Origin: Methanobacteriota archaeon
Lineage (GTDB): Archaea > Thermoplasmatota > Thermoplasmata > RBG-16-68-12
Direction: 5' to 3'
Assembly (NCBI GenBank): GCA_020029475.1
Contig: JAIBJG010000013.1
Span: 1-61,700, forward strand
DNA length: 61,700 nt
The position numbers were made by a program, and so were the translations under genes. The notes below the pieces were generated by a model. It searched no databases and had not been told where the DNA came from. It saw nothing but the letters and a program-made list of their open reading frames with translations. Of the stretch, positions 1,018 to 28,768 are shown one piece after another. Numbering within the stretch: the first letter of the stretch is position 1; the number at the start of each line of letters is the position of its first letter.

Positions 1018-1389
1018 CCCTGCGGAGGGGCTTAACCCCGCGGTTCGGTCCCCTTGGGCGGCCCGGTGAGCGTCTGCTGGACCGCGACGTCCCGACGGAT
1101 CTCCCGCTCGCGGGCGCGCCCGAGATGCCATGCGATCATCCGCGTCTCCGATGCCCACGGACGTGCGGTCCATGTTCTTGTGCTGTGCGGTGATTTGTGA
1201 CCACCCGGCCCTCACGCGTGTTTCGCGGGAAAGGTTCTAGACGAGCGGACACGATGCGGACGCATGGTATCTCATGAGGGAGGCGCGTCCTCTGCGGACG
1301 GATCTCGTTCGTCCGGCTTGAGCAATGCATTGAGCACCTTTGCGGTCGTGTTGGCCGTGATCGCAATCGCCACATCGATCGCAATCTCG

Positions 1390-1554
1390 GGTCCAAGAGG
1401 AGATCCTGGAACACCAGGAACCGCGGGCGACACGGGACCACAGGGACCCGCAGGCCCTGGAGGCCCCACAGGACCACCAGGGTCGGACGGACTCCAGGGA
1501 CCGGGTGGGCCCGCCGGACCCCAAGGACCCGCCGGACCCCAAGGACCGGCGGGT
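1390..1554 (+). repeat. Collagen-like G-X-Y triplet repeat (18 triplets)
   Basis: [55 protein letters not shown] read directly from frame 1. Codons are enriched in GGA/CCA/CCT/AGA, unlike the GC3-rich surroundings. Confidence 0.85.
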
Positions 1555-1575
1555 TTCGGCCTCGAGCGTCCTGGT

Positions 1576-2434
1576 TTCGCGGTCACAGCCATCGACACCG
1601 CGGGCGACGTCGGGCTGTCCACCTCCGTGGCGATCGGATCGGACGGGCTCGGACTAATCAGCTATCAGGACCTCACGAACCACGACCTGAAAATCGCACA
1701 CTGCTCGAACGTGCGCGGCAATCGGCGGCGGGACTTCCGTGACAATCGGCGCCGACGGACTCGGGCTGATCACCTACGAGGGCAGCGGGAACCTCAAGGT
1801 GGCCCACTGCTCCAACGTCGGCTGCACGACGGCGGAAATCAGAACGCTCGACGGAGATCCCGTGGCGAACGTGGGCACGGGCAGCTCCATAACAGTCGGT
1901 GTCGACGGGCTCGGACTCATCAGCTACTGGGACGCCACGAACAGCGACCTCAAGGTCGCGCACTGCATCAACGTGTCCTGCGGGGGCGCGACCAACGTGA
2001 CTCTCGACTCCGCCGGCTCGGTGGGCTGGTGGACCTCCATCGCAATCGGGCGGGATGGACTCGGTCTCATCGCCTACTTCGATGACACGAATCGCGCCGT
2101 CAAGGTCGCCCATTGCGTGGACATGGCCTGCACCGCCGCTAACATCACAACGGTCGATTCCACCAGTCGGTTCAGCCAGGGGCTTTCCGTGACGATCGGT
2201 TCCGACGGATTCGGACTCATCTCCTACTATTACGAGGCCCTCCGGTACGACCTCAAAGTGGCCCACTGCTCGAACGTGCTCTGCACCGCGACGACCAGCG
2301 TGACTGTCGACGACCCGGTCGACGTGGGCTGGTTTAGTTCCGTTACGATTGGGACGGACGGGTTTGGGCTCATCAGCTACTTTGATTCCAACAACCTCGA
2401 CCTCAAAGTGGCTCACTGCTCGAACGTGTACTGC
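1576..2434 (+). repeat. Six tandem blade-like repeats of about 48 aa (blade 2 shortened)
   Basis: The consensus [37 protein letters not shown] recurs six times. Each unit is bracketed by conserved Cys residues. Unit 2 is only about 35 aa and coincides with the frameshift. Confidence 0.75.
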
Positions 2435-2597
2435 ATTCCCTACCATCGAAGTCGCTAGCATCCCCTAGCCGACATGAAGCGTACCAAGCGGGCCGCGGCA
2501 TAGGAGCCGTAGAGATCGCCCCCGTTTGGCGCCTGGGCCGGATCCGGATCTCGACACGTTCCGAACTCCGCGTCGTAGGGCGCACCTCATCCCTCGT

Positions 2598-4007
2598 CTA
2601 CGGCGACATGGGTGCGTCGTGGTCCGGGAGGATCGTCTCCGCGTTGCGGACCGCGCGAACGAAGTACCCGCCGATCCCCACGATCGCCCCGAGGGCGCCG
2701 AAGACGATCAGCATCAGGGCCATCCCGGCGCCCGGACCTGTCCCGACCGCCCACCCGAAGACGCCGGTGAGGCTCCCGCCGACCGCCATCGCGGGCTCGA
2801 AGACCCCGTCGGCAAGGGGGCCGGCGATCACCATCGCGGCGGGCGCCGTGATCTGCGCGATGAGTCGCCGAGCGGCGAACACCTTCCCCTGCACGTCCGG
2901 GGCGACCTTCGCCTGCCAGATCGCCTGGTTCGAGCCGTTGATGAACGGGAGGAGGAAGGACCCGGAGAACGCGGCAATCCCCCAGATCGCGACCTCCCGT
3001 CCGACGCCCATCAGGATCGAGCCGAGGATCCCGGCGAGGGCCATCCCGCCGAGGACCCCGTGGACCCGCCGCTTCGGCCCGCCCCAGAGGCTGAGGGCGA
3101 GCCCGCCCGCGACCCCGCCGATCGCCGCAATCGAGTTCACGGCGCCGAGGACGACGACGTCGTTGCCCGTGCGGGAGAGGATCATCGGGGTGACGACGAT
3201 GAACCCGAGGGGGAAGATGAAATTGATCAGGAAGAACACGAGCTGGAGCCCGAGGAGGCTCCGGCGGGCGGCGATGTACCGGAACCCGTACACGCTCTCG
3301 GAGAGGAGGCTGCCGCGGGCCTTCCGGCCCGTCTCCGTGACCGCGGGCTGCGGGATGTGGACCGCGAGGAGGATGGAGACCGCGATCACGAACGTGACGA
3401 TGTCGATCGCCAGGATCACCGCGATCCCCGGCCCCACCAGGAGGACCCCGAGGATCGCGGCCGCGAAGACCGGGGAGAAGACGCCGGAGATCGACTGGGC
3501 CGTGGAGAGCATCCCGCTCGCCCGCCCGTACTGGGACTTCGGGAGCATCGTGGAGACCGCCGCGGAGTATGCGGGCCACTGGAACGCCTCGAACGCGCCC
3601 TCGAAGGCCCCCAGGACGAACCAGTGCCACACCTGGAGGGCCCCCGGGAGGTAGAGGACCAGGAGGACGATCGTGCCGACCCCCGCCGCGAGGTCGCTGA
3701 GCATCATCGTGAGCTTCCGGTTCCACCGGTCCACGAGCGCGCCCGCGATCGGGCTCAAGATTACGGTCGGTGCAAAGCGGAAGAACGCCGCGAGGGCGAG
3801 GGTCGTCGCCTGGCCCGTCTGGAGGTACGCCCAGATCACGAGGGCGAAGCCCGTCATCCCCGTGCCGAGAAGGGAGAATGTCTGGCCCGCGCACACGAGG
3901 GTGAACGCGCGCATTCCACGGAGGCGGGGCGTCTTCGGTGCGGTGGGCTCCGTCGTGGCGTTCAGGCGGCGTACCTCCCCTCGGGTCCGGGGATCCGCGA
4001 GGCTCAA
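2598..4007 (-). CDS. MFS transporter (EntS/macrolide-efflux-like MFS_3 type)
   Basis: 469-aa polytopic membrane ORF (FTLVCAGQTFSLLGTGMTGFALVIWAYLQTG..., SPIAGALVDRWNRK motif). The start was taken as the TTG at 4007 because it overlaps the TGA of the upstream 30-codon ORF (TTGA). An alternative ATG lies at 3914. Confidence 0.8.
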   Translation of the reverse strand: MSLADPRTRGEVRRLNATTEPTAPKTPRLRGMRAFTLVCAGQTFSLLGTGMTGFALVIWAYLQTGQATTLALAAFFRFAPTVILSPIAGALVDRWNRKLTMMLSDLAAGVGTIVLLVLYLPGALQVWHWFVLGAFEGAFEAFQWPAYSAAVSTMLPKSQYGRASGMLSTAQSISGVFSPVFAAAILGVLLVGPGIAVILAIDIVTFVIAVSILLAVHIPQPAVTETGRKARGSLLSESVYGFRYIAARRSLLGLQLVFFLINFIFPLGFIVVTPMILSRTGNDVVVLGAVNSIAAIGGVAGGLALSLWGGPKRRVHGVLGGMALAGILGSILMGVGREVAIWGIAAFSGSFLLPFINGSNQAIWQAKVAPDVQGKVFAARRLIAQITAPAAMVIAGPLADGVFEPAMAVGGSLTGVFGWAVGTGPGAGMALMLIVFGALGAIVGIGGYFVRAVRNAETILPDHDAPMSP

Positions 4008-4096
4008 CGGATGAGCGGGGCGAACCCCGAGCGCACGTGGGAATCCAGGTACACCGTCATCTCGATTTCCTTTCGGACCGACTTGTCGCGGGACAT
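4004..4096 (-). CDS. 30-codon upstream ORF, copy 1 (MSRDKSVRKEIEMTVYLDSHVRSGFAPLIR)
   Basis: The ATG at 4096 lies 23 nt downstream of a TAAATA box. The stop TGA (4006..4004) overlaps the TTG start of the MFS gene. It is homologous (17/30 identical by hand alignment) to a second copy at 15188..15280. Confidence 0.5.
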   Translation of the reverse strand: MSRDKSVRKEIEMTVYLDSHVRSGFAPLIR

Positions 4097-4119
4097 AGTC
4101 CTCTGGAGATGCCCGCGGC

Positions 4120-4132
4120 TATTTAGGCGAGC
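4120..4132 (-). promoter_or_regulatory. TATA/BRE-like promoter core GCTCGCCTAAATA (copy 1)
   Basis: A 13-nt block identical to 15304..15316. The TAAATA box is followed by exactly 23 nt and then ATG, consistent with a leaderless transcript. Confidence 0.5.
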
Positions 4133-4219
4133 CTCAAGGGAGGGGGCGAGAGGGTCTACCGATGGGGGGACACCCGCAACCCCGGGGTTGAAAAACACGA
4201 TCGATCCCGCCCCGTGCCC

Positions 4220-14052: not shown

Positions 14053-14076
14053 GCGAGATTCCAACCCAGACAACCC

Positions 14077-14084
14077 TTATAAAA
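14077..14084 (-). promoter_or_regulatory. TATA box (TTTTATAA on the minus strand) for cdc48
   Basis: A strong AT-rich octamer in an otherwise GC-rich intergenic region, about 28 nt upstream of the GTG at 14052. Confidence 0.5.
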
Positions 14085-14099
14085 GTGTCCACCCGATTG

Positions 14100-15191
14100 T
14101 CAATCCGAGGACGGGCCCTCCGGCGGCACCGGAGGCGCGGGCGGACTCGGCGGGGATGGCGGGGCCGCGGGAGCTGGCGGAGGAGGTGCGCCGCTTCCTC
14201 GGTACCCCGCTTGAGCATCAATGGCCCCGCGGGTCAGGGGCCTGCGTTCCTTCACCTCGGAGGACTCGTGGACGGTGAGGTCGCGGGCCTCGACGGCCCC
14301 GATCCGGCAGTGCGGGCCGATCACGACCTCCTCGCCGACGACGAGGTTCGCGATCGTGCACTCCAGGTTCACCTCGCGGGCCGCGATCCGGTCCGCTCGG
14401 AGTTCGCAGCGGCCGCGGAAGAACCCGCCGGGCCGGCGGACGTTCACCTCTGTCCCGTGGATCACCGGCGCGCTCACGTCCCCGCCGAGTTCGATGTCGA
14501 CCTCCTGGGCCTCGATGGGGCCGCCGAAGTTCCCCCCGCCGGCGAGCCGGAACTCCTGCGCGGTCGTTCGTCCGCCGACGCTCATGCTTCCGCGGACGTG
14601 GACCTCGTGGGCCTCGACGTCCCCGCCGACGGAGAGGGAGCCGGAGCTGTGGACCTCCTGTCCCTTCAGGTCCCCGTTCACCTTGGCGGAGCCCGCGGTG
14701 TGGAACTCCCGCGCGGTCACGTTCCCCTCGAACATGCAGGATCCCGCCGCCTTCGCGAGGTCCGCCTCGAGGTCCCCGGCGACCCGGCCGGACCCCGCGG
14801 ACTTGAACTCGTGGGCGCGCACGGGGTTCCCCGAGACGACGCCCGAACCGACGATCTTCACGTTCCCGTTCCGGGACTGGACCCCCTCGCCGAAGTCCCC
14901 GAAACGCATGCCGGAGATCGCGGGGTCCACGGACTCGCGGATCCTCCGCTCGAGGTCCGGCATGCCCCGGAGCATCGGCTCGACGGACTCGCGGATCGTC
15001 CGCTCGATCAGCATGCCGAGGTCCTCGGGGTGGCCCGCGTGCCCGGCGTGCCCCACCTGCGAGGACTCCTGGGGCTCGGGCTCGTCGGGCTCCGCCTCGT
15101 ACCGGCCCTTGATCTCCACGTACGTCTTCTCGGAGATCTCGCCCCGTGCGAGCCGCTCCTCGAGCCGCCGGAGGATCTCGGACCGCTTCAC
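14100..15191 (-). CDS. SHOCT-like domain plus bactofilin-like (polymer-forming, beta-helical repeat) protein with a Pro-rich tail
   Basis: The GTG start at 15191 overlaps the TGA of upstream ORF copy 2. The N-terminus ILRRLEERLARGEISEKTYVEIKGRY is SHOCT-like. The middle has repeated xEFxxxGSxxVxGD-type segments. The C-terminus is PPPPAPAAPPSPPSPPAPPVPP. Confidence 0.65.
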   Translation of the reverse strand: MKRSEILRRLEERLARGEISEKTYVEIKGRYEAEPDEPEPQESSQVGHAGHAGHPEDLGMLIERTIRESVEPMLRGMPDLERRIRESVDPAISGMRFGDFGEGVQSRNGNVKIVGSGVVSGNPVRAHEFKSAGSGRVAGDLEADLAKAAGSCMFEGNVTAREFHTAGSAKVNGDLKGQEVHSSGSLSVGGDVEAHEVHVRGSMSVGGRTTAQEFRLAGGGNFGGPIEAQEVDIELGGDVSAPVIHGTEVNVRRPGGFFRGRCELRADRIAAREVNLECTIANLVVGEEVVIGPHCRIGAVEARDLTVHESSEVKERRPLTRGAIDAQAGYRGSGAPPPPAPAAPPSPPSPPAPPVPPEGPSSD

Positions 15192-15280
15192 CGCAGCACC
15201 ACGCTGAAGGGTGGGCGGACCTCGACATCGAGGTAGATCGTCATCTCGTGTTCCTTTCCGACCGACTTCTTGCCGGACAT
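15188..15280 (-). CDS. 30-codon upstream ORF, copy 2 (MSGKKSVGKEHEMTIYLDVEVRPPFSVVLR)
   Basis: The ATG at 15280 lies 23 nt downstream of TAAATA. The stop TGA overlaps the GTG start of the downstream gene (GTGA). It is a paralog of 4004..4096. Confidence 0.5.
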   Translation of the reverse strand: MSGKKSVGKEHEMTIYLDVEVRPPFSVVLR

Positions 15281-15303
15281 GAGAGAGACCAAGCACGTGG
15301 GCG

Positions 15304-15316
15304 TATTTAGGCGAGC
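15304..15316 (-). promoter_or_regulatory. TATA/BRE-like promoter core GCTCGCCTAAATA (copy 2)
   Basis: Identical 13-mer and identical 23-nt spacing to the ATG as at 4120..4132. Confidence 0.5.
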
Positions 15317-15409
15317 TTCACGGAGCGCGAAGAAAGCCTCCACGCGTCGGAGGACAACGTCAACCCGAGGGTTGAAGAAGGTTGATTTGCGCCGCGCCGA
15401 TGCGGGCGC

Positions 15410-15832
15410 GTGCCGGACGACCCCCTGGAGCTCATCCGCATCGTGGCCTCCGCGACCCGGCTCCAGATCCTGAAGCTGCTCCAGCAGGGGTTCGACCATC
15501 CCGAGGACCTCGCGAAGAAGATGAAGATCCGCCGCCAGGCAGTGGACAAGCAGCTCGTCGAGCTGTTCGACTGGGGCCTTGTGGACCGGGCCGCGGTGTT
15601 CCCGCCCACGGGCCGGCCCCGGATCGTGTACCAGGTCACGCTGCGGGGGAAGGACCTCGTCGAACTCCTCGACCGCGCGGCGAAGGAGCACCACGACGGA
15701 TTCCGCCAGGACTTCCAGCGGGAGATGGACGACCTCGAGGCGAAGCTTGCGGCGGGGGAGATCGCGGAGGAGATGTACTTCAAGAAGCGAAAGGAGATCG
15801 AGGCCCGCTACAAGCGGGTCGTGGGCCCATGA
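15410..15832 (+). CDS. ArsR-family wHTH regulator with a C-terminal SHOCT-like helix
   Basis: LELIRIVASATRLQILKLLQQGFDHPEDLAKKMKIRRQAVDKQLVELFDWGLV is ArsR/SmtB-like. The C-terminus is LEAKLAAGEIAEEMYFKKRKEIEARY. GTG start. It is divergent from the SHOCT-bactofilin-like gene. Confidence 0.8.
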   Translation: MPDDPLELIRIVASATRLQILKLLQQGFDHPEDLAKKMKIRRQAVDKQLVELFDWGLVDRAAVFPPTGRPRIVYQVTLRGKDLVELLDRAAKEHHDGFRQDFQREMDDLEAKLAAGEIAEEMYFKKRKEIEARYKRVVGP

Positions 15833-15841
15833 CCCCGGGCC

Positions 15842-16585
15842 TCATTCGAGGTGTCTCTGCTTCCGGATCGCCTCGTCCAGCGTGATCTCCCCGCGGGCGA
15901 CGCGGGACGCGAGGTCCTTCGAGATCGTGACGCCCCCCTCGCTCGACACCCGGCTCCTCCGCTGGATCTCCCGCACCTCTCCCGGCGTGGGCTCCACGTC
16001 GTACGGCGGGGTCGCGCGCACCCCGGGGACGAACGCAATCTTGATCGCGGCGTCAATGTCCGGCTCCTGGGTCCGGTCCGTCGTGCCCGCCTCGTCGACG
16101 ATCTCCGTCGGGAGGCTCTCCCGCGCGAGCGCGTTCAGGATCCGGTTCCGGTTCGTCCGGTCCCCGTGGCCGATCCGGACCCGCCGCCTCGCGGACGGGA
16201 ACGTCCCGAGGGCGTCCCGCACAATCCCCGCGACCGCCTCCGGCGAGGGCGCGTGGTACGTCGCGAGGACCTGTCCGTCCCCCACGACCGCGACCCCGGG
16301 CTCCTCGCCCGGGTCGATCCCCACGAGGACCTCCTCCCACTCCGTCTTCCCATGGAGGACCTGGACCGCGCGGGCGATCGCCGCGCCGATGTCCCCCTCC
16401 GCGACGACATGGGGCCTCCGGACCCGGTCCGCTTCCTTCGGGGAGGTGACGATGACCCCGACGTTCTCCGGGATCCGGCGGGAGAAGGAGAGGCTGACGA
16501 ACGGGATGTCGCGGGCCTTCAGCTCCGCGACGAGGTCGTGGTACAGGCGGAAGTCCTCCGTCATCACCCCGAGGACCTTCGGCAT
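15842..16585 (-). CDS. Conserved hypothetical protein with a possible RNase H-like (RuvC/YqgF-type) fold
   Basis: 247-aa ORF with natural composition. VLVGIDPGEEPGVAVVGDG resembles the first strand and acidic motif of RNase H-fold nucleases. The function call is tentative. A TATA-like GTTTTAGC lies about 25-30 nt upstream. Confidence 0.55.
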   Translation of the reverse strand: MPKVLGVMTEDFRLYHDLVAELKARDIPFVSLSFSRRIPENVGVIVTSPKEADRVRRPHVVAEGDIGAAIARAVQVLHGKTEWEEVLVGIDPGEEPGVAVVGDGQVLATYHAPSPEAVAGIVRDALGTFPSARRRVRIGHGDRTNRNRILNALARESLPTEIVDEAGTTDRTQEPDIDAAIKIAFVPGVRATPPYDVEPTPGEVREIQRRSRVSSEGGVTISKDLASRVARGEITLDEAIRKQRHLE

Positions 16586-28501: not shown

Positions 28502-28677
28502 GCGGCGGAACGTTCCCCGTCGTCGCCTAGCTGCAGCACGGGCACGCCTTCCACTCCGGGGCGAGTCCCGCACCGCACCTTGACCACGATTCCCTCCATG
28601 CCGGGGGTGGGAATAGAGTTCGCACGGAATCCCCACCGCAACGTTCTTGCAGACCCCGCGCATGGAGCGCCACCCGT

Positions 28678-28762
28678 GCGGCGGTAGCCAAGCCCGGTCA
28701 AAGGCGTCAGATTCAGGGTCTGATCTCGCAGGGGTTCCCAGGTTCAAATCCTGGCCGCCGCA
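28678..28762 (+). tRNA. tRNA-Leu (anticodon CAG), class II with long variable arm
   Basis: Hand-folded: acceptor GCGGCGG/CCGCCGC, anticodon stem TCAGA/TCTGA with loop TTCAGGG (CAG), 14-nt variable arm, T-arm CCAGG-TTCAAAT-CCTGG, discriminator A. CCA is not encoded. Confidence 0.9.
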
Positions 28763-28768
28763 TTCCTC

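What the first reader, a model, noticed from the sequence alone, without database searches (positions are those of the whole stretch)
15188..15316. Copy 2 of the promoter/30-codon ORF cassette, overlapping the start of a SHOCT-bactofilin-like gene
The architecture matches 4004..4135: TAAATA, 23 nt, ATG at 15280, 30 codons, and a TGA overlapping the GTG start (GTGA) of the downstream 363-aa gene. Both copies end in an xTGA overlap with a non-ATG start. This suggests that downstream translation depends on termination-reinitiation after the mini-ORF. A conserved internal AAAGGAA(n5)GAGATG could alternatively act as an SD for an 18-codon version starting at Met13.
Basis: seen in the sequence. Interest (0 to 1): 0.75.

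Follow-up and report, generated by a model that had tools for sequence, protein, structure and literature searches.

The report
Conserved archaeal leader mini-gene, translationally coupled
A 30-codon mini-gene sits at the very start of the messenger RNA for a cytoskeleton-like (bactofilin) gene in uncultured soil archaea, always ends exactly on that gene's start codon, and recurs with its promoter in front of an unrelated transporter gene: a tidy but fairly ordinary case of coupled translation, with an undescribed small-peptide family.

Summary
All features lie on the minus strand: TAAATA at 15309-15304, a 23-nt spacer, ATG at 15280, 30 codons, and a TGA whose GTGA overlaps the start of a 363-aa SHOCT-bactofilin gene. 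The organism is a high-GC soil Thermoplasmata archaeon.

In every orthologous locus read, an upstream ORF ends in ATGA or GTGA on the bactofilin start. That covers 12 distinct 30-codon versions and 3 loci of a sister clade with a 60-61-codon version.

Met1 is the conserved start.

The frame looks coding: it is open in 17/17 members, and GC by codon position is 0.56/0.36/0.89. The peptide itself is only weakly constrained, with pN/pS 0.5-0.75 against 0.14 for the neighbouring SHOCT codons. A conserved SD-like GGTG lies 5-6 nt before the bactofilin start.

The module of palindrome, promoter and mini-ORF is an old paralogue pair. A second subfamily precedes a DHA3-type MFS transporter in at least three lineages, and other genes in two more loci.

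Best reading: the leaderless first cistron of a coupled (termination-reinitiation) gene pair, within a reused regulatory module. No experiment supports this yet. Interest is moderate.

The parts
15361..15376 (.). Operator-like palindrome TTCAACCCTCGGGTTG. It lies between the divergent wHTH regulator gene and the mini-ORF, and ends 80 nt upstream of the mini-ORF ATG.
   Evidence: It is conserved in all bactofilin-type and MFS-type cassettes. The 80-nt spacing is the same in copy 1.
15304..15316 (-). BRE/TATA-like promoter element GCTCGCCTAAATA (TAAATA at 15309-15304).
   Evidence: It is invariant in the 14 aligned loci retrieved with a search pattern containing this 13-mer, so that invariance is by construction. 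Cassettes found independently keep a TATA-like box here with small variants. Function as an archaeal TATA box is inferred from sequence and spacing, not mapped.
15281..15303 (-). 23-nt spacer between the TATA box and the ATG. The length is conserved (22-23 nt) but the sequence is not.
   Evidence: (mean pairwise identity 0.52). This geometry implies that the transcript starts at or next to the ATG, i.e. a leaderless mRNA (inference).
15188..15280 (-). 30-codon mini-ORF (MSGKKSVGKEHEMTIYLDVEVRPPFSVVLR) plus its TGA stop. Proposed first cistron.
   Evidence: Its frame is the only one open in 17/17 family members, and GC by codon position is 0.56/0.36/0.89. pN/pS is 0.5-0.75. Gene callers call it as a gene in several metagenomes, but no source names it.
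15197..15200 (-). SD-like GGTG inside codons 27-28 of the mini-ORF, 5 nt before the downstream GTG start.
   Evidence: It is conserved in both the 30-codon and the 60-codon clade, and is replaced by GGAGTGA in L030. Fuller SD-like matches such as GAGGTGATC precede other genes in the window.
15188..15191 (-). GTGA stop/start overlap: the TGA of the mini-ORF and the GTG of the bactofilin gene.
   Evidence: It is ATGA or GTGA in all orthologous loci.
14100..15191 (-). 363-aa SHOCT-like plus bactofilin-domain gene, proposed second cistron.
   Evidence: Pfam Bactofilin scores 36.9 bits against a cut-off of 27.9. SHOCT scores 16.5 bits, below its cut-off of 27. There are 205 homologues, mostly from Thermoplasmata metagenome-assembled genomes (MAGs). 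Amino-acid conservation starts at codon 2.
15410..15832 (+). Divergently transcribed winged-helix regulator (weak ArsR / HVO_A0261_N / Lrs14-Sta1-like). Candidate binder of the palindrome.
   Evidence: It is syntenic in all bactofilin loci. Binding to the palindrome is inference only.
4004..4192 (-). Paralogous cassette (copy 1): palindrome 4177-4192, GCTCGCCTAAATA 4120-4132, mini-ORF 4096-4004 (MSRDKSVRKEIEMTVYLDSHVRSGFAPLIR), ending in TTGA.
   Evidence: Members of the same subfamily precede MFS genes in L026/L027 and L028/L029.
2598..4007 (-). DHA3-type MFS transporter downstream of copy 1. The start is either the TTG at 4007, overlapping the mini-ORF stop, or the ATG at 3917.
   Evidence: The start is unresolved.

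Best explanation
The 93-nt ORF at 15280-15188 (minus strand) is a genuinely translated small gene.

**Proposed mechanism**
- It is the first cistron of a leaderless mRNA. Transcription starts about 23 nt downstream of an archaeal TATA box, so the 5'-terminal AUG is the ribosome entry point.
- After 30 codons the ribosome terminates on a TGA that overlaps the GTG (ATG in relatives) of the SHOCT-bactofilin gene.
- Translation of the bactofilin gene is coupled to this termination event by termination-reinitiation. An SD-like GGTG embedded in codons 27-28 probably assists.

**The wider module**
- Palindrome, promoter and mini-ORF form a module of about 190 bp that has been duplicated as a unit.
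- One old paralogue drives the bactofilin gene. Another drives a DHA3-type MFS transporter, and in other lineages other genes.
- The two loci in this window are probably co-regulated through the shared palindrome by the divergently encoded winged-helix regulator.

**Shown versus inferred**
- Shown: the anatomy, its conservation, the coding-like composition, the weak peptide constraint and the reuse of the module.
- Inferred: the transcription start, translation of the mini-ORF, coupling, and regulator binding.
For: 1. **Overlap is universal.** An ATGA or GTGA overlap is present in every orthologous locus examined. These cover two clades whose upstream ORFs differ in length (30 versus 60-61 codons) and in sequence.
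2. **Promoter geometry.** The TATA-to-ATG distance is fixed at 22-23 nt while the spacer sequence drifts to 0.52 identity.
3. **The frame looks coding.** It is open in 17/17 members, whereas the other sense frames carry stops in 12 and 5 of 17. GC by codon position is 0.56/0.36/0.89, like real genes in the window at 0.66-0.73/0.49-0.51/0.93-0.96.
4. **The ORF is constrained.** It is more conserved than the adjacent spacer (0.79 versus 0.52). Its third-position identity equals that of the SHOCT codons (0.74 versus 0.75), so there is no extra nucleotide-level constraint.
5. **The peptide is only weakly constrained.** pN/pS is 0.5-0.75 for the mini-ORF against 0.14 for SHOCT.
6. **An SD-like motif is kept.** GGTG is conserved at -9..-6 or -10..-7 in both clades, even though the peptides encoded there differ.
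7. **No RNA element was found.** There is no Rfam match and no covariation in the transcript alignment.
8. **The module recurs before unrelated genes.** It precedes MFS genes in the window/L020, L026/27 and L028/29; a 50-aa ORF operon in L031; and an unknown membrane gene in L025.
9. **The mechanism has precedent.** Overlapping pairs of this kind were strictly coupled in 13 of 14 tested cases in H. volcanii and E. coli, with a variable contribution from the SD motif (PMC6728339).
Against: - There is no transcript, ribosome-profiling or peptide evidence. All organisms involved are uncultured.
- The SD-like GGTG could support initiation independent of the mini-ORF.
- The invariant 30-codon length in 24 distinct peptides is not explained by a pure ribosome-delivery role. 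Neither are the near-invariant residues S2, S6, V7, K9, T14, R22 and R30.
- The MFS-type cassettes lack an SD-like motif, and their true downstream start is uncertain.
- In L025 the stop context is CTGA, and the next called gene starts 33 nt later, behind a strong hairpin.
- Cdc48, immediately downstream of the bactofilin gene, has its own TATA-like box. The operon is therefore probably only two genes.
Confidence: 0.6

Rival explanations
1. The mini-ORF encodes a trans-acting micro-protein. It could be a small partner of the downstream products or a modulator of the winged-helix regulator. On this reading the overlap serves stoichiometric co-expression rather than ribosome delivery.
For: - The length is fixed at 30 residues in 24 distinct peptides.
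- Substitutions at the core are conservative: T-[IV]-[YF]-[LV]-[DE], R22, [PG]24, [FY]25 and R30. Synonymous variation occurs at conserved residues.
- The 60-aa clade has conserved N- and C-terminal blocks.
- Gene pairs coupled by termination-reinitiation often encode subunits of heteromeric complexes (PMC10666635).
Against: - The same peptide family precedes unrelated proteins: bactofilin, an MFS transporter and others. That argues against a dedicated partner.
- pN/pS of 0.5-0.75 is high for a folded protein.
- AlphaFold2 gives no confident fold: pLDDT 62.8 and no secondary structure.
- There is no Pfam, NCBIfam or PDB relative.
Confidence: 0.2
2. The mini-ORF is a sensory leader peptide. The nascent 30-mer, still inside the exit tunnel when the ribosome reaches the stop, would stall termination in response to a ligand or stress. 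That stall would gate reinitiation or occlude the overlapping start, in the manner of TnaC, SpeFL or the fungal arginine attenuator peptide. The comparison with these peptides is from my own knowledge, plus 10.1101/604074, PMC8450073 and PMC11890864.
For: - The length of 30 residues is close to the capacity of the exit tunnel (own knowledge).
- The C-terminal Arg followed by a stop is invariant, using the codons CGG, CGA, CGT, CGC and AGG, so the constraint is at the amino-acid level.
- Conserved residues are spaced through the C-terminal 17 residues.
- The module is reused upstream of unrelated genes, including a DHA3 'macrolide-efflux-like' transporter. This is a class often controlled by leader peptides in bacteria (own knowledge).
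Against: - No archaeal precedent was found.
- No alternative RNA structures and no covariation were detected.
- The sister clade uses a 60-61-aa ORF with a different C-terminus, RWNQ.
- Nothing in the sequence points to a ligand.
Confidence: 0.1
3. The ORF is fortuitous. On this reading the conserved sequence is only promoter-proximal DNA or a 5'UTR, and the bactofilin gene is translated independently from its own SD-like GGTG.
For: - An SD-like motif sits at a suitable distance from the downstream start.
- Open frames are easy to obtain at 68 % GC.
- The antisense frame 0 is also open in 15/17 members.
Against: - The frame has a strong coding-type GC3/GC2 contrast and is the only sense frame open in all members.
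- The ATG is invariant at a fixed 22-23 nt from the TATA box.
- The stop always lands on the start, in two clades with different ORF lengths.
- There are no indels in 24 peptides, although the adjacent spacer is unconstrained.
Confidence: 0.06
4. The upstream ORF is a split-off remnant of the bactofilin N-terminal tail, i.e. the membrane-targeting sequence. It would now be made as a separate peptide or rejoined by frameshifting.
For: The N-termini are MFGxKNA in the 60-aa clade and MSGKKSV in the 30-aa clade. These resemble the global bactofilin membrane-targeting consensus MFSKKKK (PMC12448750).
Against: - The resemblance is short and was not tested statistically.
- Phe2, which is critical in BacA (PMC12448750), is Ser or Asn in the 30-aa clade.
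- There is no slippery site at the overlap (sequence).
- None of 120 orthologues is fused.
- The same peptide family also precedes MFS and other genes.
Confidence: 0.04

Closest known systems
Overlapping co-directional gene pairs coupled by termination-reinitiation (Huber et al. 2019, PMC6728339; PMC10666635)
   Same: Both have a 4-nt ATGA/GTGA stop/start overlap and an SD-like motif inside the upstream gene. Both occur in an archaeal setting where first cistrons are commonly leaderless.
   Different: Here the upstream partner is only 30 codons (60-61 in a sister clade) and belongs to a small family. That family is re-used together with its promoter in front of unrelated genes. Coupling has not been measured.
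[quoted passage not shown]
   Same: Both are unannotated short ORFs that start at the 5' end of the transcript and precede operon genes. In both, one sORF type occurs upstream of several operons.
   Different: The domain of life differs. The peptide has no run of a single amino acid (such as poly-Cys) that would suggest amino-acid-sensing attenuation. The stop/start overlap is the conserved feature here.
Termination-arrest leader peptides (TnaC, SpeFL, PepNL; PMC8450073, 10.1101/604074, PMC11890864)
   Same: Both are short (14-34 aa) upstream ORFs. Regulation in the known cases acts at the stop codon, and the C-terminal residue is conserved.
   Different: No stalling, ligand or downstream RNA switch is shown here, and all known examples are bacterial or eukaryotic. 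This is a lead only.
Promoter reuse / putative mobile promoters in prokaryotes (own knowledge: Nijveen, Matus-Garcia and van Passel, 2012)
   Same: A promoter-containing segment of about 190 bp is found upstream of non-homologous genes within one genome and across relatives.
   Different: The reused unit includes an operator-like palindrome and a translated leader ORF. No terminal repeats or target-site duplications were seen.
Bactofilin N-terminal membrane-targeting sequence (PMC12448750)
   Same: Both are Lys-rich N-termini beginning M-[F/S]-[G/S]-x-K, associated with a bactofilin gene.
   Different: Here the sequence is encoded in a separate, frame-shifted ORF. It also occurs upstream of non-bactofilin genes. 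Phe2 is absent in the 30-aa clade.

Membership tests
Termination-reinitiation coupled overlapping gene pair | Co-directional genes with a 4-nt (ATGA/GTGA) or 1-nt stop/start overlap | tested here: met
   GTGA at 15191-15188. The overlap is ATGA or GTGA in all orthologous loci.
Termination-reinitiation coupled overlapping gene pair | Translation of the downstream gene depends on translation of the upstream gene | not testable with these tools
   This needs reporter or ribosome-profiling experiments. Here there is only evolutionary conservation of the overlap.
Termination-reinitiation coupled overlapping gene pair | SD-like motif within the 3' end of the upstream gene (frequent, not obligatory) | tested here: met
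   GGTG lies 5-6 nt upstream of the start in both clades. It is absent in the MFS-type copies.
Leaderless first-cistron short ORF | Transcription start at or within a few nt of the start codon | not testable with these tools
   Inferred from the invariant 22-23 nt between TAAATA and the ATG. There are no transcript data.
Leaderless first-cistron short ORF | ORF is translated and has coding character | tested here: inconclusive
   Composition and frame openness are coding-like, and pN/pS is 0.5-0.75. There is no peptide or footprint evidence.
Amino-acid-sensing attenuator sORF (e.g. poly-Cys leaderless sORFs, classical leader peptides) | Run or enrichment of codons for one regulatory amino acid | tested here: not met
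   No such run appears in the 24 peptides.
Ribosome-arrest leader peptide | Conserved arrest motif and demonstrated stalling | not testable with these tools
   Conserved R30-stop and the T14-D18/R22 core are compatible with this. No alternative RNA structures were found.
Structured cis-regulatory RNA (riboswitch or other Rfam family) | Match to a covariance model or covarying base pairs | tested here: not met
   There are no Rfam hits at gathering threshold or at E<=1. The RNAalifold covariation term is +1.83, i.e. unfavourable.
Bactofilin (PF04519), downstream gene | Pfam Bactofilin domain above the gathering score | tested here: met
   36.9 bits against a cut-off of 27.9.
SHOCT domain (PF09851), downstream gene | Pfam SHOCT above the gathering score | tested here: not met
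   16.5 bits against a cut-off of 27, at residues 7-24. It is SHOCT-like only.
Bactofilin membrane-targeting sequence | N-terminal MFSKKKK-like motif at the N-terminus of the bactofilin polypeptide itself | tested here: not met
   The motif-like sequence is in a separate ORF in another frame. All 120 orthologues start at M[KN]R..IL.RLEERL.
Ribbon-helix-helix / antitoxin-like small protein | Profile match to an RHH family | tested here: not met
   No Pfam, NCBIfam or PDB match was found.

The most novel reading that the evidence does not exclude
The palindrome-promoter-mini-ORF unit could be a portable archaeal expression and regulation cassette. Its 30-residue nascent peptide would stall at its own stop codon and so gate reinitiation on the overlapping start. 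It would be an archaeal counterpart of TnaC/SpeFL-type leader peptides, recruited in front of unrelated and possibly horizontally acquired genes (bactofilin, a DHA3 efflux pump, others).
Probability: 0.1. Interest if true: 0.75.

Novelty: new member of a known kind. Interest (0 to 1): 0.4.

Why it matters
Small ORFs are systematically under-annotated in archaea, and very few archaeal upstream or leader ORFs have a defined role.

This one is unusually well supported by comparative data:
- Its position relative to the promoter is fixed.
- Its stop/start overlap is invariant across two clades.
- It has been co-opted, together with its promoter and a candidate operator, in front of unrelated genes.

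If coupling is confirmed, it would be a clean natural example of how leaderless archaeal mRNAs translate a second cistron. It would also show how a ready-made promoter-plus-leader module can be reused to express other genes.

If only the ordinary reading holds, the practical value is smaller. It would amount to a corrected annotation: a new 30-aa gene family, the Met1 start, and the bactofilin start at the GTG/ATG.

Tried and rejected
- **Word-indexed protein search with the 30-aa alignment.** It was replaced by an exhaustive HMM search with the two window peptides.
- **AlphaFold of a mini-peptide-linker-bactofilin fusion, to test docking.** The peptide alone gave pLDDT 62.8 with no secondary structure, which is uninformative.
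- **RNA-element hypothesis.** Rfam gave nothing at gathering threshold over the whole window, nor at E<=1 over 15050-15450. RNAalifold on 8 orthologous transcripts gave no covariation. Folding of the intercistronic regions of the MFS-type copies was not better than shuffles, except in L025.
- **Met13 / internal SD alternative.** Rejected because position 13 varies.
- **Programmed frameshift fusing the mini-ORF to bactofilin.** Rejected because there is no slippery site and no fused orthologue.
- **Genome-wide check for leaderless geometry.** I measured the spacing between A/T hexamers and ORF starts in the window. There were too few sites and the starts were too ambiguous to be informative.
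- **Strict cassette pattern in GTDB species representatives.** Only 2 loci were found, so counts of cassettes per genome were not possible.
- **Viral contigs.** No match.
- **True start of the MFS gene downstream of copy 1.** This remains unresolved.
  - For the extension: in-frame extensions of 90, 78 and 84 nt, a conserved K-T-P-R-L-[SR]-G motif, and only one possible start codon.
  - Against it: a conserved GMR[AT]F Met, a 1-nt indel in L027, and mixed GC3.
Full report
**1. The observation**

The feature lies on the minus strand. Reading 5' to 3', it contains:
- GCTCGCCTAAATA at 15316-15304;
- a 23-nt spacer;
- ATG at 15280;
- 30 codons encoding MSGKKSVGKEHEMTIYLDVEVRPPFSVVLR;
- TGA at 15190-15188.

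The G before the TGA completes a GTG at 15191. That GTG opens a 363-aa ORF, 14100-15191.

Copy 1 (4132-4004) has the same layout and ends in TTGA. An alignment of the two regions shows a further shared element, the palindrome TTCAACCCnnGGGTTG, ending exactly 80 nt upstream of each ATG.

The shared strings occur only at these two places in the window and are not expected by chance.

**2. Context**

The downstream protein has a Pfam Bactofilin domain above threshold and a sub-threshold SHOCT-like N-terminus. A winged-helix regulator is encoded divergently at 15410-15832, with weak ArsR, HVO_A0261_N and Lrs14/Sta1-like matches.

The closest homologues of the bactofilin protein come from uncultured soil Thermoplasmata. 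The locus is syntenic in all relatives read: dnaK, dnaJ, a 247-aa gene, the divergent regulator, the upstream ORF, bactofilin, cdc48.

**3.

I read the DNA upstream of bactofilin orthologues spanning 99 % to 49 % protein identity. I added loci from one pattern scan of GTDB genomes and one of JGI metagenomes.

- Twelve distinct 30-codon versions were found upstream of bactofilin. Every one ends in ATGA or GTGA on the bactofilin start.
- A more distant clade (L004/5, L007, L008; bactofilin identity 49-55 %) has a 60-61-codon upstream ORF instead. It has conserved ends, MFGxKNAGLxExLxRFR ... VLVRKETYFAxxxxxRWNQ, and again ends in ATGA.
- None of 120 called orthologues has the upstream peptide fused in frame.
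- Met1 is invariant, while position 13 is Val, Arg or Ile in most bactofilin-type sequences. The 18-codon alternative is therefore rejected.

**4. Is it coding?**

- Across 17 family members with DNA in hand, the mini-ORF frame is the only sense frame open in all of them.
- Its GC content by codon position is 0.56/0.36/0.89. This is the pattern of real genes in this 68 %-GC genome, which show 0.66-0.73/0.49-0.51/0.93-0.96.
- The ORF is much better conserved than the untranscribed 23-nt spacer next to it (0.79 versus 0.52 identity).
- Its third-position identity equals that of the adjacent SHOCT codons (0.74 versus 0.75). There is thus no sign of extra nucleotide-level constraint.
- Peptide constraint is weak. 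Pooled pN/pS is 0.5-0.75, against 0.14 for the SHOCT segment in the same loci.
- Even so, all 24 distinct peptides are exactly 30 residues. The consensus is MSGKKSVxKExExTIYLDxEVRx[PG]Fxxx[LI]R, with M1 and R30 invariant and S2, S6, V7, K9, T14 and R22 nearly so.
- No RNA family matches the region, and the transcript alignment shows no covariation.

**5. Promoter and start geometry**

The TATA-to-ATG distance is 22-23 nt in every member, although the intervening sequence is not conserved.

Archaeal TATA boxes are centred about 26-27 nt upstream of the transcription start (established knowledge). That places the start at the A of the ATG, giving a leaderless mRNA. This step is inferred, not measured.

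**6. The downstream start**

A GGTG sits 5-6 nt upstream of the bactofilin start in both clades, although the peptides encoded there differ (VVLR versus RWNQ). In L030 it is replaced by GGAGTGA. Fuller SD-like matches such as GAGGTGATC precede other genes in the window.

In H. volcanii and E. coli, overlapping gene pairs were strictly coupled in 13 of 14 cases. The contribution of the internal SD varied from none to essential (PMC6728339). The anatomy here fits that mechanism, but the SD-like motif also leaves independent initiation possible.

**7. The cassette is an old, reused module**

An exhaustive HMM search with the two window peptides found further 30-residue ORFs. Their contexts show a second subfamily, ending in RxGFxxLxR, with the same palindrome and promoter layout:
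- It lies upstream of DHA3-type MFS transporters in at least three lineages: the window and L020, L026/27, and L028/29.
- In L031 it lies upstream of a different small-gene operon, with a GTGA overlap onto a 50-aa ORF.
- In L025 it lies upstream of a low-GC membrane gene.

A second genome probably carries both cassettes on one 56.6-kb contig.

In the MFS loci, the stretch between the mini-ORF stop and the conserved GMRAF motif has these properties:
- it is 90, 78 or 84 nt long, in frame and open;
- it has only one possible start codon, which overlaps or abuts the stop;
- it carries a conserved K-T-P-R-L-[SR]-G motif with synonymous differences.

This favours coupling there too. Against it stand a 1-nt indel in L027, mixed GC3 values and a conserved internal Met. 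I leave this unresolved.

**8. Interpretation**

The best-supported reading is a translated leaderless first cistron. Its termination is coupled to initiation of the next gene. It is embedded in a module of candidate operator, promoter and leader ORF of about 190 bp that has been duplicated in front of unrelated genes. The divergently encoded regulator probably controls it.

The weak peptide constraint and the reuse before unrelated genes favour a cis role over a dedicated protein partner. The fixed length and conserved residues keep a peptide function open, either as a trans-acting micro-protein or as a termination-arrest sensor.

The N-terminus resembles the bactofilin membrane-targeting consensus MFSKKKK (PMC12448750). 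I note this as an untested lead.

**9. Novelty and score**

The peptide family is unnamed and matches no family in Pfam or NCBIfam and no PDB sequence. The mechanism it most likely uses is well known. Leaderless first-cistron sORFs have been described in mycobacteria (PMC4633059; 10.1101/834739).

I rate it a new member of a known kind, with interest 0.4. There is a small chance, about 0.1, that it is an archaeal nascent-peptide regulatory cassette, which would be much more interesting.

Noticed in passing
L025:1090-1503: In this relative the pirin-cassette arrangement is kept, but the mini-ORF ends in CTGA. It is followed by a strong hairpin (GAGACCGG...CCGGTCTC; -27 kcal/mol, z = -2.5) and then by a markedly lower-GC membrane-protein gene with no Pfam match. 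This may be a foreign gene inserted behind the cassette.
   Followed up: partly
window 2598-3917 (-): The MFS transporter behind copy 1 is a DHA3 'macrolide-efflux-like' protein. Its homologues at 60-65 % identity include proteins named from Chloroflexota (Anaerolineae, Dehalococcoidia). This suggests inter-domain gene transfer.
   Followed up: no
L026:3094 versus L027:3094: Two near-identical contigs differ by one extra G (GTGGGAC versus GTGGGGAC) just after the mini-ORF stop. The extra base breaks the in-frame N-terminal extension of the MFS gene in L027. It could be an assembly error, or evidence that the extension is not translated.
   Followed up: partly
L004:2725-2750; L007 and L008, about 250 nt upstream of the bactofilin start: The clade with the 60-aa upstream ORF has a different palindrome, CATCTCCC-N4-GGGAGATG, overlapping the start of the divergent regulator gene. 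It takes the place of TTCAACCC-N2-GGGTTGA, which may reflect operator-regulator co-evolution.
   Followed up: no
window 15325-15345 (-) and orthologues (alignment): A second conserved element, GTGGAGGCTTTCCTCC, lies between the palindrome and the TATA box of the bactofilin-type cassettes. It contains the inverted repeat GGAGG-CTTT-CCTCC. The MFS-type cassettes and the L006 clade carry GGTAGACCCTCTCGCC instead.
   Followed up: no
window 15842-16585 (-): A 247-aa protein is conserved in synteny between dnaJ and the regulator in every locus read. It has no significant Pfam or NCBIfam family, only a weak DUF460 match.
   Followed up: no
window 14074-14099 (-): The 26-nt gap between the bactofilin stop and cdc48 contains a TATA-like CTTTTATAA. 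Cdc48 therefore probably has its own promoter and is not part of the mini-ORF-bactofilin transcript.
   Followed up: partly
window 1264-2458 (+): An ORF with a collagen-like GPxGPxG stretch overlaps an ORF with five or more repeats of a unit of about 45 aa ending in [10 protein letters not shown]. This looks like an unusual repeat protein near the window start.
   Followed up: no
window 28677-28763 (+): tRNA-Leu (CAG) is the only RNA gene detected in the window.
   Followed up: yes
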